A stretch of 51,754 nt of DNA from Escherichia virus TH30: the sequence record MT446404.1. One strand, written 5' to 3'. The first letter of the stretch is position 1. Each line of letters starts with the position of its first letter. Positions 28,322 to 43,421 of the stretch are shown in pieces. Below the pieces are notes generated by a model. The model made no database searches, was not told the DNA's origin, and worked only from the letters and a program-made list of their open reading frames with translations. The translations under genes were made by a program, and so were the position numbers.

Positions 28322-28338
28322 TTAACAAAAAGTGCTAT
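28322..28338 (-). promoter_or_regulatory. conserved 17-bp motif, upstream stop TAG embedded
   Basis: Stop of 28335..28622 is the TAG of the motif. Confidence 0.55.
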
Positions 28339-28622
28339 CGCTCATCTTCCCTGGAGCATCCTTTGCCGCAACCATGGCGACCAACTTCCACGATGCCGAC
28401 TCCGCTTAAGCCGATGTATTCCTGACCAGTGTCCTTATCGGTGATGACGTATATCGCTCTGACGTTCTCGTATGCCAGGTCATCCCTGAACTCCTGAATC
28501 TTCACAACCTGGACGCGATCGTTTACGTTTACTGGCATCATCTGCCGAGCGTCGGAGCTAACCCTTGTATCTGAGTCACAACCAGCCAGCGCCAGGGCTG
28601 CTAATAAAATTAGTTTCTTCAT
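28335..28622 (-). CDS. lipoprotein (95 aa), candidate superinfection-exclusion protein
   Basis: Signal plus lipobox MKKLILLAALALAGC. Confidence 0.5.
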   Translation of the reverse strand: MKKLILLAALALAGCDSDTRVSSDARQMMPVNVNDRVQVVKIQEFRDDLAYENVRAIYVITDKDTGQEYIGLSGVGIVEVGRHGCGKGCSREDER

Positions 28623-37687: not shown

Positions 37688-37720
37688 AAAAAAGGGAGCC
37701 TTTCGGCTCCTTTTATTTTT
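37688..37720. terminator. bidirectional terminator between rightward early block and lysis cassette
   Basis: A-run, GGAGCC-tttc-GGCTCC, T-run. Confidence 0.65.
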
Positions 37721-38099
37721 TGCGTCGTTCCAGCCAGATTGAAAGAGCAATCATCACAATGCCGATGAACAGGAATACCAGTCCGGCAATCAGATTACCT
37801 TTCGAGTCATCGTTCCTGATCTCAATCTTATCAGCGATGATGGTGTCAGCCTTGATGCTTGAGGTGCTGACAGACTTCCCGTTTGACGTATCAACCTTTC
37901 CTACCTTTGAATCTTTTATAGTGGTGTCGTTGTCGTTTGACTTATCCACCTTTCCGGTAACGCCTACCGTTTGCTTCACGTTCTCGGCACCAGCCTGTGC
38001 GCTAATTTCTGGCTTACTGCCAATTAAACCAGTCAGCGCCGAAGTGGCTGAACAACCTGAAAGCATAATCACTGCCGCGATCACAATTCCCTTAAGCAT
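37713..38099 (-). CDS. unimolecular spanin-like protein (lipoprotein with C-terminal transmembrane helix, 128 aa)
   Basis: Lipobox LSGC at N-terminus and hydrophobic helix LIAGLVFLFIGIVMIALSIW then RRKK; last gene of lysis cassette. Confidence 0.6.
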   Translation of the reverse strand: MLKGIVIAAVIMLSGCSATSALTGLIGSKPEISAQAGAENVKQTVGVTGKVDKSNDNDTTIKDSKVGKVDTSNGKSVSTSSIKADTIIADKIEIRNDDSKGNLIAGLVFLFIGIVMIALSIWLERRKK

Positions 38100-38563
38100 A
38101 GTTCTATCTCCGCGTTGCGCCTGTTAACCAGGCCTTTGCTAACAACCTTCTTGCCATTTACCGTAATTTTATTCCACATAGAGAACGCCTCACAACCTCC
38201 GCGAATATCACCACGATTCATACGCCTGATAGTTGTTGAGTTCCTCATCGCGTTAGTGCCGATATTATAGCTAAGAGAGTATAGTGCGGCTCTGGTGCTC
38301 ACTGGAACATCAACTTTTAGGGCTTTATCAACAGCTGCCCTGTGAATAGATAGGTGCTTAATCAGAAGTGAGTCGCACTCACTCTGAGTGTACACCTTGC
38401 CGAGAATAACGTCAGGTCCAGTAATCCCCTGGCATACTGTCCACACCCCCGCAACATCCTTGTATGGCCTGTACTCAACACCTTCATGCTCATTTAGGAA
38501 TGGAACAGCTAGCGCTACAGCTCCCGCCACAGCGCCACCAATAATCTTGTTCTTTATACTCAT
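38081..38563 (-). CDS. SAR endolysin (phage lysozyme fold with N-terminal signal-anchor-release helix, 160 aa)
   Basis: N-terminal Gly/Ala-rich weakly hydrophobic helix KIIGGAVAGAVALAVPF followed by EGVEYRPYKDVAGVWTVCQGITG catalytic-type region. Confidence 0.75.
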   Translation of the reverse strand: MSIKNKIIGGAVAGAVALAVPFLNEHEGVEYRPYKDVAGVWTVCQGITGPDVILGKVYTQSECDSLLIKHLSIHRAAVDKALKVDVPVSTRAALYSLSYNIGTNAMRNSTTIRRMNRGDIRGGCEAFSMWNKITVNGKKVVSKGLVNRRNAEIELCLREL

Positions 38564-38565
38564 TA

Positions 38566-38781
38566 TTATTTACTCCTGATCCTCATTGCTTCACGGAGAT
38601 CACCATCCTCAAGGGCTTTATGTAGTGCCCTGCTATCACGCCAGCGAAGCCATGCCCCGAAGATACCAAAGCACACAGCTATTACTAAGCCGATAATGCC
38701 GATTATTGTATTGTCAGATAAGCCGCCACCCATAGCTACTCCGCTACCGGATAAGGCGGCTGCGTCATAGAAATGTTTCAT
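38566..38781 (-). CDS. holin, probably pinholin class (71 aa)
   Basis: Two hydrophobic helices and charged C-terminus; directly upstream of SAR endolysin. Confidence 0.6.
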   Translation of the reverse strand: MKHFYDAAALSGSGVAMGGGLSDNTIIGIIGLVIAVCFGIFGAWLRWRDSRALHKALEDGDLREAMRIRSK

Positions 38782-38811
38782 GTTGCGGCCTCGTTAAGTT
38801 GATTTGTTTAA

Positions 38812-38820
38812 ATAATACCA
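38812..38820 (-). promoter_or_regulatory. extended -10 promoter TGGTATTAT upstream of holin
   Basis: Plus-strand ataatacca about 30 nt upstream of holin ATG. Confidence 0.45.
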
Positions 38821-38895
38821 GATATTACTCCTTGACATAAACGAAAAAAGGCGACCTTAAAGGCCACCTCTTTGTAACTTCATGTTTTTTATAAT

Positions 38896-39069
38896 TTAGT
38901 CTTCTATAATGAATTCCACCAAAGCACCATCAATCGGCGCAAAAATCCACGTCATATCGTCACCATAAATCTTGTAGTATCCGTCACCCTGATACTCACC
39001 GCTGTATGGACTGTTGACAGTGAAAGGAAGTGTCTTAGATGTATTCTTAATGCAAAACAATTTAACCAT
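38896..39069 (-). CDS. possible 57-aa protein (MVKLFCIKNTSKTLPF...)
   Basis: Below ORF-track cut-off; AGAGGA RBS 7 nt upstream. Confidence 0.35.
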   Translation of the reverse strand: MVKLFCIKNTSKTLPFTVNSPYSGEYQGDGYYKIYGDDMTWIFAPIDGALVEFIIED

Positions 39070-39141: not shown

Positions 39142-39618
39142 TCAAGATCCGTGACTTCGATGGAATCCATGAATCTTTTCAGCATCCTTTCTTGCTATCA
39201 AAGCGTCATCGAACGAATCTCCATAATAAAGGATCTTTGTTTTTCCATTTATTTTTATCTGCGCTATCCATTTATTTTTCATATTGTTCCAAGCAACACC
39301 AACAGTTCCGCTCGTGTTTGTTGATGGCTTACGCTTGTTCCTGTTGTTGATTAACCTTGTAACCATTCTTAGGTTTTCAATTCTATCATCACCAGGAACG
39401 TGATTTATATGATCTATCTCCATACCATCTGGTATAGTGCCGTTGTGCATCTCCCATACGATTCTATGTCTTGGCGTAATTGTGTCATATCTACGGATAT
39501 ACCAATAACCCCTATGATGCCTACTCCCAGCTTCATCACCAGGCTTCAATCTTGTGCAGTGAGGGTCCTTCCAAAATACCCGTCCATCTTTATAGTATAA
39601 GAAATCATTCCAATTCAT
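39142..39618 (-). CDS. HNH homing endonuclease (158 aa)
   Basis: EIDHINHVPGDDRIENLRMVTR motif; paralogue of 16915..17397 and 40836..41321. Confidence 0.85.
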   Translation of the reverse strand: MNWNDFLYYKDGRVFWKDPHCTRLKPGDEAGSRHHRGYWYIRRYDTITPRHRIVWEMHNGTIPDGMEIDHINHVPGDDRIENLRMVTRLINNRNKRKPSTNTSGTVGVAWNNMKNKWIAQIKINGKTKILYYGDSFDDALIARKDAEKIHGFHRSHGS

Positions 39619-43148: not shown

Positions 43149-43421
43149 TCATTTAACCTCGGTAACTTTGCAGTTATTCACAGCGACGAACCCGCCGACG
43201 CTAACTTTAACCTGACTTTCAGTCACGTTATAAACTGCCTTGCCTAAGAAAGTTTGCAGTTCATAGTGATCGCCTTCACGCTCAATAACAACGCCCTTAT
43301 CTGAAACAATCTGCGACTTGGTTACTGTGAATGATTCCTTGCCGCAATCGTAAAACTTGGTATCTTCTGCACAACCTGCCATTGCCACAACTGCCAGTAG
43401 GGCGATGATTGACTTTTTCAT
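43149..43421 (-). CDS. lipoprotein (90 aa)
   Basis: Signal plus lipobox MKKSIIALLAVVAMAGC. Confidence 0.5.
   Translation of the reverse strand: MKKSIIALLAVVAMAGCAEDTKFYDCGKESFTVTKSQIVSDKGVVIEREGDHYELQTFLGKAVYNVTESQVKVSVGGFVAVNNCKVTEVK

What the first reader, a model, noticed from the sequence alone, without database searches (positions are those of the whole stretch)
37713..38820. Compact lysis cassette: pinholin-like holin, SAR endolysin, unimolecular spanin
The endolysin begins with a Gly/Ala-rich helix typical of signal-anchor-release endolysins. The last gene encodes a lipoprotein (LSGC lipobox) with a C-terminal transmembrane helix, the architecture of a unimolecular spanin as described for phage T1, rather than the usual two-component spanin.
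Basis: partly seen in the sequence, partly recalled or inferred. Interest (0 to 1): 0.5.

Follow-up and report, generated by a model that had tools for sequence, protein, structure and literature searches.

The report
Standard T1-type phage lysis cassette

Summary
Three tightly packed minus-strand genes occupy 37713-38781. They are a 71-aa holin, a 160-aa GH24 lysozyme and a 128-aa lipoprotein. The lysozyme has an uncharged Gly/Ala-rich N-terminal segment. The lipoprotein has an LSGC lipobox, Ser at +2, and a strong C-terminal transmembrane helix followed by ERRKK. The window is a T1-like siphophage (Drexlerviridae, closest to Nouzillyvirus). The locus is syntenic with T1 genes 16-15-14-13-12-11, and each protein is homologous to its T1 counterpart (37-46% identity). 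T1 gp11 is the prototype unimolecular spanin. The endolysin is 44% identical to the structurally solved SAR endolysin R21/RrrD, and that match runs into the N-terminal segment. Published surveys describe pinholin + SAR endolysin + u-spanin as the classical Drexlerviridae module (core cassette in 508 of 522 genomes). So this is already known and of low interest. "Pinholin" and "SAR" remain predictions here: the holin has one strong and one marginal hydrophobic segment and no sequence similarity to the phage 21 pinholin, and signal-peptidase cleavage cannot be excluded in silico. Two side findings. The cassette is mosaic: a Rogue1-type holin-endolysin is joined to a Nouzillyvirus-type spanin, with the breakpoint at the spanin signal peptide. 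A DUF7244/SH3 gene lies just upstream.

The parts
38566..38781 (-). Holin (71 aa), T1 gp13 homologue. It has one strong TMD (24-45), a marginal Gly/Ala/Ser-rich N-terminal segment (7-22) and a basic cytoplasmic tail (net +3). Predicted pinholin, not proven.
   Evidence: ORF. phrog_2877 holin E 9e-36. 37% identical to T1 gp13 and 97% to the Rogue1 holin. Sits in a 90% cluster named 'holin' from Rogunavirinae. Hydropathy.
38081..38563 (-). GH24 (T4-lysozyme-type) muramidase (160 aa) with an N-terminal SAR-like domain (residues 7-24) and catalytic triad E27/D36/T42. T1 gp12 homologue.
   Evidence: PF00959 E 2e-36. phrog_7 endolysin E 2e-54. PDB 4ZPU RrrD E 4e-39 and 3HDE R21 E 2e-38, aligned from query residue 6. 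46% identical to T1 gp12. Motif and N-terminal features.
37713..38099 (-). Unimolecular spanin (128 aa), T1 gp11 family. Signal peptide with lipobox LSGC (13-16), Ser +2 (outer-membrane sorting), an 86-residue Cys-free periplasmic segment, C-terminal TMD 103-123 and a cytoplasmic ERRKK tail.
   Evidence: phrog_1804 E 3e-47 over the full length. 38-40% identical to T1 gp11. tblastn finds 1172 phage records, many annotated U-spanin. Features conserved in 8 of 8 aligned homologues. AF2 helix 99-127 with pLDDT about 80-88.
37695..37710 (.). GC-rich hairpin (GGAGCC-GAAA-GGCTCC) flanked by T-runs on both strands. Likely a bidirectional intrinsic terminator ending the lysis operon and the convergent helicase-side transcript.
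   Evidence: Terminator-like sites called on both strands. It starts immediately after the spanin stop codon. T1 has an annotated terminator at the equivalent spot.
38782..38873 (-). Upstream leader of the cassette. It holds a terminator-like hairpin at 38845-38873 after the preceding gene, a possible extended -10 (TGGTATTAT, 38820-38812), and the GAGG RBS before the holin ATG.
   Evidence: Hairpin of 13 pairs plus a T-run. The -10-like element was read from the sequence. It was NOT called by the promoter scan, so it is inference only.
38896..39069 (-). Neighbouring 57-aa DUF7244 (SH3-clan) protein, T1 gp14 homologue. Proposed in the literature as an auxiliary lysis-module component. Whether it belongs to the cassette is unproven.
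   Evidence: PF23896 E 2e-29. 48% identical to T1 gp14. Paper PMC13164509.

Best explanation
This is the lysis operon of a T1-like (Drexlerviridae) coliphage. It works by the pinholin / SAR-endolysin / unimolecular-spanin pathway.

Inferred sequence of events:
1. The endolysin is exported by the host Sec system during late infection. It stays tethered to the inner membrane, enzymatically restrained, through its weakly hydrophobic N-terminal SAR helix.
2. The u-spanin is lipoylated at Cys16 and sorted to the outer membrane (Ser at +2), while its C-terminal helix stays in the inner membrane. Each molecule therefore threads through the peptidoglycan mesh as a largely extended 86-residue tether.
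3. The 71-aa holin accumulates harmlessly in the inner membrane. At a programmed time it triggers and depolarises the membrane.
4. Loss of proton-motive force releases the SAR helix. The helix refolds onto the lysozyme body as in R21, and the enzyme degrades the murein.
5. With the murein gone, the spanins are free to move laterally and collapse. This fuses the inner and outer membranes and releases the virions.

Shown here: gene structure, domain features, homology and synteny. Inferred from the T1, phage 21 and lambda paradigms: timing, export, release and fusion.
For: - Gene order and neighbours match T1 (exonuclease-HNH-gp14-holin-endolysin-spanin-terminator-convergent gp10/helicase).
- Pairwise homology to T1 gp13, gp12 and gp11: E 2e-16, 2e-52 and 1e-27.
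- The endolysin matches the crystallised SAR endolysin R21 (3HDE/3HDF) and RrrD (4ZPU) from residue 6 onward. The E-x8-D-x5-T triad sits 3 residues after the SAR-like segment.
- The SAR-like segment is an 18-19 residue uncharged stretch, 44-56% G/A/S/T, with no Cys. It is conserved in character, though not in sequence, across 6 Drexlerviridae endolysins, as in R21.
- Spanin features are conserved in 8 of 8 homologues, including podophage members: lipobox, invariant Ser +2, C-terminal TMD with basic tail, a periplasmic segment of 81-90 residues, and no periplasmic Cys.
- No two-component spanin candidate exists elsewhere in the window. Only two other lipobox ORFs were found, both of unknown PHROG function and not next to TMD partners.
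- Literature: T1 gene 11 complements a lambda RzRz1 defect, and T1gp11-family members sit in pinholin + SAR-endolysin cassettes (PMC6139136). The same triple is described for TLS/T1 (PMC11447400) and called 'classical' for Drexlerviridae, with the core module in 508 of 522 genomes (PMC13164509).
Against: - Nothing contradicts the overall reading.
- No functional data exist for these exact proteins.
- The first hydrophobic segment of the holin is short (16 uncharged residues flanked by Asp) and marginal (KD 1.0; Hessa sum +4.3). A single-TMD topology is therefore equally compatible. The holin shows no similarity to S21-68.
- The endolysin N-terminus contains AXA-like sites (for example A17-L18-A19|V20) that could in principle be cut by signal peptidase I.
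- Single-sequence AF2 models were too poor (pLDDT 59 and 50) to test the beta-rich periplasmic domain or the docking of the SAR helix.
- Identity to T1 gp11 itself (38-40%) sits right at the 40% family threshold used by Kongari et al.; membership is clearer through intermediates (56% to IsaakIselin, 48% to a Drulisvirus u-spanin).
Confidence: 0.9

Rival explanations
1. The cassette is the same, but the holin is a canonical or single-TMD (class III-like) holin that forms large holes, not a pinholin. The SAR endolysin would then simply be released by the depolarisation that any holin causes, as with P1 Lyz and LydA.
For: Only one segment (24-45, KD 2.2) is clearly membrane-spanning. Segment 7-22 is 16 residues long with KD 1.0 and is predicted not to insert by itself. 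The T1 record annotates gp13 as 'contains single transmembrane domain'. There is no sequence similarity to the phage 21 pinholin. Kongari et al. note that u-spanins work with either holin type.
Against: The Gly/Ala/Ser-rich first segment resembles the SAR-like TMD1 of S21-68, which also scores below KD 0.9 in the same analysis. The 71-aa size and the pairing with a SAR endolysin fit a pinholin. Published annotations of T1/TLS/KanT1 call it a class II pinholin, although these too are predictions.
Confidence: 0.3
2. The endolysin N-terminus is an ordinary Sec signal peptide, cleaved by leader peptidase. This would give a secreted soluble lysozyme whose activity is held back by some means other than membrane tethering.
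For: The n-region is positively charged (MSIKNK). Small residues sit at possible -3/-1 positions (A15-V16-A17, A17-L18-A19) inside the hydrophobic stretch.
Against: There is no polar c-region with an AXA site after the hydrophobic stretch: N24-E25-H26-E27 leads straight into the catalytic Glu. The putative sites are not conserved in the T1, P817 or IsaakIselin homologues. The h-region is Gly/Ala-rich and Leu-poor like the R21 SAR domain, and the HMMER alignment to R21/RrrD extends into it. In R21 this segment is part of the active fold (3HDE covers it). A freely secreted active lysozyme would lyse the cell prematurely.
Confidence: 0.07
3. The 128-aa lipoprotein is not a spanin. It would be a superinfection-exclusion or other envelope lipoprotein (Cor-like) that happens to sit next to the endolysin.
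For: There are weak PHROG hits to Cor (E 0.002) and a Pfam hit to T4 Spackle (E 0.04, below cut-off), all confined to the N-terminal signal and early mature region.
Against: The full-length match to phrog_1804 has E 3e-47. The protein is homologous and syntenic with T1 gp11, which has been shown to replace Rz/Rz1. The C-terminal TMD and basic tail are conserved, which an exclusion lipoprotein would not need. No other spanin candidate exists in the genome.
Confidence: 0.02

Closest known systems
Phage T1 lysis cassette: gp13 holin, gp12 endolysin, gp11 unimolecular spanin (Summer et al. 2007; Kongari et al. 2018, PMC6139136)
   Same: Gene order, orientation, flanking genes and downstream terminator are identical. 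Protein lengths are 71/160/128 aa here versus 71/162/133 in T1. Both have the LSGC lipobox with Ser +2, a C-terminal TMD with basic tail, a SAR-like endolysin N-terminus and catalytic E27.
   Different: Identity is only 37-46%. The endolysin and spanin overlap by 19 nt here versus 1 nt in T1. The holin here has an Asp (D23) splitting the uncharged region into 16 + 22 residues, whereas T1 gp13 has one 42-residue uncharged run.
Rogue1 / Rogunavirinae holin-endolysin, and the Nouzillyvirus (P817, 50EP, TH27) spanin
   Same: The holin is 97% and the endolysin 80% identical to Rogue1. The spanin is 92-97% identical to P817 and 50EP. TH27 and 50EP share the whole arrangement at about 87% nucleotide identity.
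   Different: The window combines the two lineages. Its spanin is only 33% identical to the Rogue1 spanin. Its holin and endolysin are only 32% and 51% identical to those of P817. P817 also carries an HNH gene between endolysin and spanin that is absent here.
Phage 21 pinholin S21-68 and SAR endolysin R21 (PDB 3HDE/3HDF), and the DLP12 homologue RrrD (4ZPU)
   Same: The endolysin is a homologue (E about 1e-38, 44% identity) with the same catalytic triad. Its SAR-like N-terminal domain is Cys-free and Gly/Ala-rich, which points to R21-type (refolding) rather than P1 Lyz-type (disulfide isomerisation) control. The holin has similar size and a similar weak-TMD1/strong-TMD2 layout.
   Different: The holin has no detectable sequence similarity to S21-68 and no dual-start motif. 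The linker between the SAR segment and the catalytic Glu is about 6-8 residues shorter than in R21. Phage 21 uses a two-component Rz/Rz1 spanin.
Lambda Rz/Rz1 two-component spanin
   Same: Same role and end-state topology: an outer-membrane lipid anchor plus an inner-membrane TMD bridging the periplasm. T1 gp11 complements the lambda RzRz1 defect (PMC6139136).
   Different: It is a single polypeptide with no coiled-coil i-spanin, no embedded gene, no periplasmic cysteines or disulfide-linked dimers, and no sequence similarity.

Membership tests
T1 gp11-type unimolecular spanin (u-spanin) | N-terminal lipoprotein signal peptide with a lipobox and the acylated Cys | tested here: met
   MLKGIVIAAVIM-LSGC at 13-16. 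L13, G15 and C16 are invariant in 8 of 8 homologues.
T1 gp11-type unimolecular spanin (u-spanin) | Outer-membrane sorting (no Lol-avoidance Asp at +2) | tested here: met
   Ser17 is at +2 and is invariant in the alignment. Actual sorting was not tested.
T1 gp11-type unimolecular spanin (u-spanin) | C-terminal transmembrane domain with a short basic cytoplasmic tail | tested here: met
   Residues 103-121 have KD 2.93 and Hessa sum -4.0, with tail WLERRKK. The AF2 model gives a helix at 99-127 with pLDDT 79-88.
T1 gp11-type unimolecular spanin (u-spanin) | Periplasmic domain long enough to span the envelope, free of Cys and predicted beta-strand-rich | tested here: inconclusive
   The domain is 86 residues long (about 29 nm if fully extended; my estimate) and has no Cys. 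Beta content could not be assessed because the single-sequence AF2 model gave pLDDT about 45-52 and coil.
T1 gp11-type unimolecular spanin (u-spanin) | Sequence relatedness to family members (Kongari et al. criterion: at least 40% identity over at least 40% of the length) | tested here: met
   Identity is 38% (BLASTP) or 40% (MAFFT) to T1 gp11, 56% to the IsaakIselin u-spanin and 48% to a Drulisvirus u-spanin. phrog_1804 E 3e-47.
T1 gp11-type unimolecular spanin (u-spanin) | Last gene of a lysis cassette, immediately after the endolysin | tested here: met
T1 gp11-type unimolecular spanin (u-spanin) | Disrupts the outer membrane and complements lambda RzRz1 | not testable with these tools
   Shown only for T1 gp11 (PMC6139136).
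SAR (signal-anchor-release) endolysin, R21 type | Muralytic catalytic domain of the T4-lysozyme/GH24 type with the E-x8-D/C-x5-T triad | tested here: met
   PF00959 E 2e-36. E27/D36/T42. E27, D36 and T42 are invariant in the 7-sequence alignment.
SAR (signal-anchor-release) endolysin, R21 type | N-terminal TMD-like segment that is uncharged, weakly hydrophobic, Gly/Ala/Ser/Thr-rich and preceded by basic residues | tested here: met
   Residues 7-24: 18 uncharged residues, KD 1.9, 44% GAST, after MSIKNK. This is comparable to R21 (24 residues, KD 1.4, 62% GAST).
SAR (signal-anchor-release) endolysin, R21 type | Homology to an experimentally established SAR endolysin, extending into the SAR domain | tested here: met
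   3HDE/4ZPU at E about 1e-38, with query residues 6-157 aligned to chain residues 12-161.
SAR (signal-anchor-release) endolysin, R21 type | Not cleaved by signal peptidase; Sec-dependent export; release on membrane depolarisation | not testable with these tools
   AXA-like sites exist inside the segment (A17-L18-A19). No canonical c-region follows it. No signal-peptide predictor or experiment was available.
Pinholin (phage 21 S21-68 type, class II holin) | Small protein with two TMDs (N-in, C-in), TMD1 being a releasable SAR-like helix | tested here: inconclusive
   The protein is 71 aa. Segment 24-45 is a clear TMD. Segment 7-22 is Gly/Ala/Ser-rich but short and marginal (KD 1.0). The T1 homologue is annotated with one TMD in GenBank and with two in PMC11447400.
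Pinholin (phage 21 S21-68 type, class II holin) | Sequence homology to S21-68 | tested here: not met
At best this is a functional analogue, not a family member.
Pinholin (phage 21 S21-68 type, class II holin) | Genetic pairing with a SAR endolysin | tested here: met
   The adjacent gene is the SAR-type endolysin.
Pinholin (phage 21 S21-68 type, class II holin) | Forms about 2-nm channels that depolarise the membrane but do not pass folded endolysin | not testable with these tools
   To my knowledge and in the papers read, no experimental data exist for any T1-family holin.

The most novel reading that the evidence does not exclude
The cassette is a recent inter-subfamily chimera. A Rogunavirinae-type holin-endolysin pair was grafted onto a Nouzillyvirus backbone and spanin. 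The crossover falls in the 19-nt endolysin/spanin overlap and the spanin signal-peptide codons. This is the same junction where the relative P817 carries an HNH homing endonuclease. If homing-endonuclease-driven co-conversion is what shuffles lysis modules in Drexlerviridae, then u-spanins are fully interchangeable with heterologous holin-endolysin pairs, and this locus would be a natural example. A second possibility is that the adjacent DUF7244/SH3 protein is a fourth, unrecognised lysis factor.
Probability: 0.25. Interest if true: 0.3.

Novelty: already known. Interest (0 to 1): 0.08.

Why it matters
It matters little beyond correct annotation. It confirms that this contig is a T1-like virulent coliphage with the family's standard three-step lysis system. 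It also gives three more sequences for a family in which only the T1 spanin has been tested experimentally. There are two modest points of wider interest. First, a holin-endolysin module from one subfamily evidently functions beside a spanin from another, which supports the published view that u-spanins are independent of their partner holin and endolysin. Second, the predicted pinholin and SAR endolysin of T1-like phages still lack direct experimental proof, so any member could serve for that test.

Tried and rejected
- AlphaFold2 single-sequence models of the spanin (pLDDT 58.8) and the endolysin (pLDDT 49.9) were too poor. They could not test the beta-rich periplasmic domain or the docking of the SAR helix, so no fold search was run on them.
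- I chose not to spend the large protein-database searches (search for homologous proteins, the search of protein representatives), because phage-collection BLAST, PHROGs, Pfam and PDB already gave unambiguous homology.
- The J Virol 2018 paper on T1 gp11 localisation (PMC6206483) is not held in the library. Its content is cited only through reviews.
- The KBNP1315 lysis paper concerns an SP6-like phage with an unrelated SLT-type enzyme and is not relevant.
- NCBIfam gave only sub-threshold hits.
- The weak Pfam Stevor, DUF2501 and Spackle hits to the spanin and the PHROG Cor hit were rejected as low-complexity or signal-peptide matches.
- The promoter scan called no sigma-70 site upstream of the holin. 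The extended -10-like TGGTATTAT is my own reading of the sequence only.
- A search for a hidden two-component spanin, using a lipobox scan of all ORFs, found only two unrelated lipoproteins of unknown function.
- The 34-aa ORF embedded in the spanin gene (37790-37894) has no lipobox and was dismissed.
Full report
**What is there.**
The finding's interval holds three closely packed minus-strand ORFs.

| Gene | Coordinates | Length |
|---|---|---|
| Holin | 38566-38781 | 71 aa |
| Endolysin | 38081-38563 | 160 aa |
| Spanin (lipoprotein) | 37713-38099 | 128 aa |

- Each ATG is preceded by a GGAG/GAGG Shine-Dalgarno sequence.
- Holin and endolysin are separated by 2 nt. Endolysin and the last gene overlap by 19 nt.
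- A GC-rich hairpin with T-runs on both strands (37695-37710) follows the last stop codon.
- Another terminator-like hairpin (38845-38873) precedes the holin leader.
Otherwise the coordinates are exact: 37713 is the end of the spanin stop codon, and 38820 lies 39 nt upstream of the holin start.

**Feature check.**

*Spanin*
- The lipobox LSGC is at 13-16. Cys16 is the only cysteine, and Ser is at +2, so there is no Lol-avoidance signal.
- Residues 103-121 form a strongly hydrophobic segment (Kyte-Doolittle 2.93). Its summed Hessa 'biological' scale is -4.0 kcal/mol; the scale values were entered from memory.
- That segment is followed by WLERRKK.
- The otherwise poor single-sequence AF2 model gives a confident helix at 99-127.

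*Endolysin*
- It starts with MSIKNK, followed by 18 uncharged residues (IIGGAVAGAVALAVPFLN).
- That stretch is 44% G/A/S/T and only moderately hydrophobic.
- The catalytic motif E27-x8-D36-x5-T42 follows at once.

*Holin*
- It has one clear TMD (24-45).
- It has a marginal Gly/Ala/Ser-rich segment (7-22, KD 1.0).
- It has a basic C-terminal tail (net +3).

**Homology.**
- Holin: phrog_2877, E 9e-36.
- Endolysin: Pfam Phage_lysozyme, E 2e-36; phrog_7 endolysin.
- Spanin: phrog_1804 'Rz-like spanin', E 3e-47 over its full length.
- The endolysin matches solved structures of the phage 21 SAR endolysin R21 (3HDE/3HDF) and its DLP12 homologue RrrD (4ZPU) at E about 1e-38. The alignment starts at residue 6, inside the N-terminal hydrophobic segment.
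- The SAR-like segment has no Cys. An R21-type (refolding) control is therefore more likely than a P1 Lyz-type (disulfide) control. This is inference.

**Genomic context.**
- The window is a T1-like siphophage. The 25-kb half tested is about 90% identical over about 75% of its length to Escherichia phages TH21, 50EP and P817 (Drexlerviridae, Nouzillyvirus).
- The exact proteins are already in NCBI on a contig of exactly 51,754 nt.
- The locus is syntenic with T1: DNA-repair exonuclease (gp16), HNH (gp15), small protein (gp14), holin (gp13), endolysin (gp12), spanin (gp11), terminator, then convergent gp10/helicase.
- Identities to T1 gp13, gp12 and gp11 are 37%, 46% and 38-40%.
- tblastn with the spanin finds 1172 phage records, many annotated 'U-spanin' with neighbouring 'SAR endolysin'.
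- In an 8-sequence alignment that includes Autographiviridae members, these features are conserved: the lipobox L-x-G-C, Ser +2, a Cys-free periplasmic segment of 81-90 residues, and a C-terminal TMD with a basic tail.
- In a 7-sequence endolysin alignment, the uncharged G/A/S/T-rich N-terminus and the catalytic triad are conserved.
- A lipobox scan of every ORF in the window found only two other candidate lipoproteins, both of unknown PHROG function. The phage therefore has no hidden two-component spanin.

**Comparison with the literature.**
- Kongari et al. 2018 (PMC6139136) define u-spanins by an N-terminal lipoylation signal plus a C-terminal TMD.
  - They report that T1 gene 11 complements the lambda RzRz1 defect.
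  - They state that essentially all members of the T1gp11 family sit in cassettes encoding a pinholin and a SAR endolysin.
  - They note that no u-spanin has a periplasmic Cys.
- The TLS re-annotation (PMC11447400) describes the same triple for TLS and T1, as predictions.
- The KanT1 paper (PMC13164509) calls pinholin + SAR endolysin + u-spanin the 'classical architecture'. It finds the exonuclease-holin-endolysin-spanin core in 508 of 522 Drexlerviridae genomes.

**Mechanism (inferred from the T1, phage 21 and lambda paradigms).**
1. Sec-dependent export leaves the endolysin tethered and restrained in the inner membrane.
2. The spanin is lipoylated and sorted to the outer membrane, while its C-terminal helix stays in the inner membrane. 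It thereby threads through the murein.
3. Holin triggering collapses the proton-motive force.
4. The SAR helix leaves the bilayer and the lysozyme becomes active.
5. Removal of the murein frees the spanins to collapse and fuse the two membranes.

Only the sequence features and homology were shown here.

**Caveats.**
- 'Pinholin' is not established. The first segment is short and marginal. T1 gp13 is annotated with a single TMD in GenBank. There is no similarity to S21-68. Either starting topology ends with only the 24-45 helix in the membrane.
- 'SAR' rather than 'cleaved signal peptide' cannot be proven in silico, because A17-L18-A19|V20 fits the -3/-1 rule. Three points argue against cleavage:
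  - no c-region follows the hydrophobic stretch before the catalytic Glu;
  - such sites are not conserved in homologues;
  - the homology to R21 extends into the segment.

**Side observations.**
- *Mosaic cassette.* In 100-nt windows, the spanin body (37713 to about 38050) is 95-99% identical to P817 and 50EP but about 45-55% to Rogue1.
  - From about 38100 to 38850 the sequence is about 47-59% identical to P817 in most 100-nt windows, rising to 64-77% only across 38350-38549, but up to 94% identical to Rogue1.
  - The holin protein is 97% identical to Rogue1 and 32% to P817.
  - The breakpoint coincides with the endolysin/spanin overlap and the spanin signal-peptide codons.
  - P817 carries an HNH homing endonuclease at exactly that junction. 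It is 43% identical to the HNH that this window carries two genes upstream.
- *Upstream SH3-clan gene.* The 57-aa gene just upstream (38896-39069) is DUF7244 (E 2e-29). This is the SH3-clan protein recently proposed as an auxiliary lysis-module component.
  - Here it has no export signal.
  - It is separated from the holin by a terminator-like hairpin.

**Verdict.**
- The kind of system is already known.
- Interest is low (0.08).

Noticed in passing
window 37713-38900 (breakpoint about 38050-38100): The lysis cassette is mosaic. The spanin body is 95-99% nucleotide-identical to the Nouzillyvirus phages P817 and 50EP. The holin-endolysin part is Rogue1-like (holin 97% aa) and in most 100-nt windows only about 47-59% nucleotide-identical to P817, rising to 64-77% over 38350-38549. 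The crossover lies in the endolysin/spanin overlap and the spanin signal-peptide codons.
   Followed up: partly
L004 (Escherichia phage P817) 3060-3524; window 39142-39618 (-): P817 has an HNH homing endonuclease inserted on the opposite strand exactly between endolysin and spanin. The window lacks that insertion but has a 43%-identical HNH_3 gene between the exonuclease and the DUF7244 gene, as T1 does (gp15, 40% identity). HNH genes seem to move around this locus.
   Followed up: partly
window 38896-39069 (-): This 57-aa protein is a full-length DUF7244 (PF23896, E 2e-29) and a T1 gp14 homologue (48% identity). It is the stand-alone SH3-clan protein proposed in 2026 as an auxiliary part of the Drexlerviridae lysis module. 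It has no signal peptide or TMD, and a terminator-like hairpin (38845-38873) separates it from the holin, which sits awkwardly with a periplasmic murein-binding role.
   Followed up: partly
window 28335-28622 (-) and 43149-43421 (-): There are two further predicted lipoproteins. One is 95 aa (LAGC with Asp at +2, an inner-membrane retention signal) and the other is 90 aa (MAGC, Ala +2). Both fall in PHROGs of unknown function. One may be a Cor-type exclusion protein, but this was not tested.
   Followed up: partly
window 38812-38820 (-): TGGTATTAT, an extended -10-like element, lies about 30 nt upstream of the holin ATG and just downstream of the terminator-like hairpin. The consensus promoter scan did not call it, because there is no good -35.
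   Followed up: no
window 38081-38563 compared with L001 (phage 50EP): The endolysin gene is the most divergent part of the cassette, even between the window and its closest full-length relatives. It is 69-81% nucleotide identity in 100-nt windows and 84% aa, against 97% aa for the spanin and 92% for the holin. This suggests a third endolysin allele or repeated exchange.
   Followed up: no
whole window: No tRNA genes were found.
   Followed up: no
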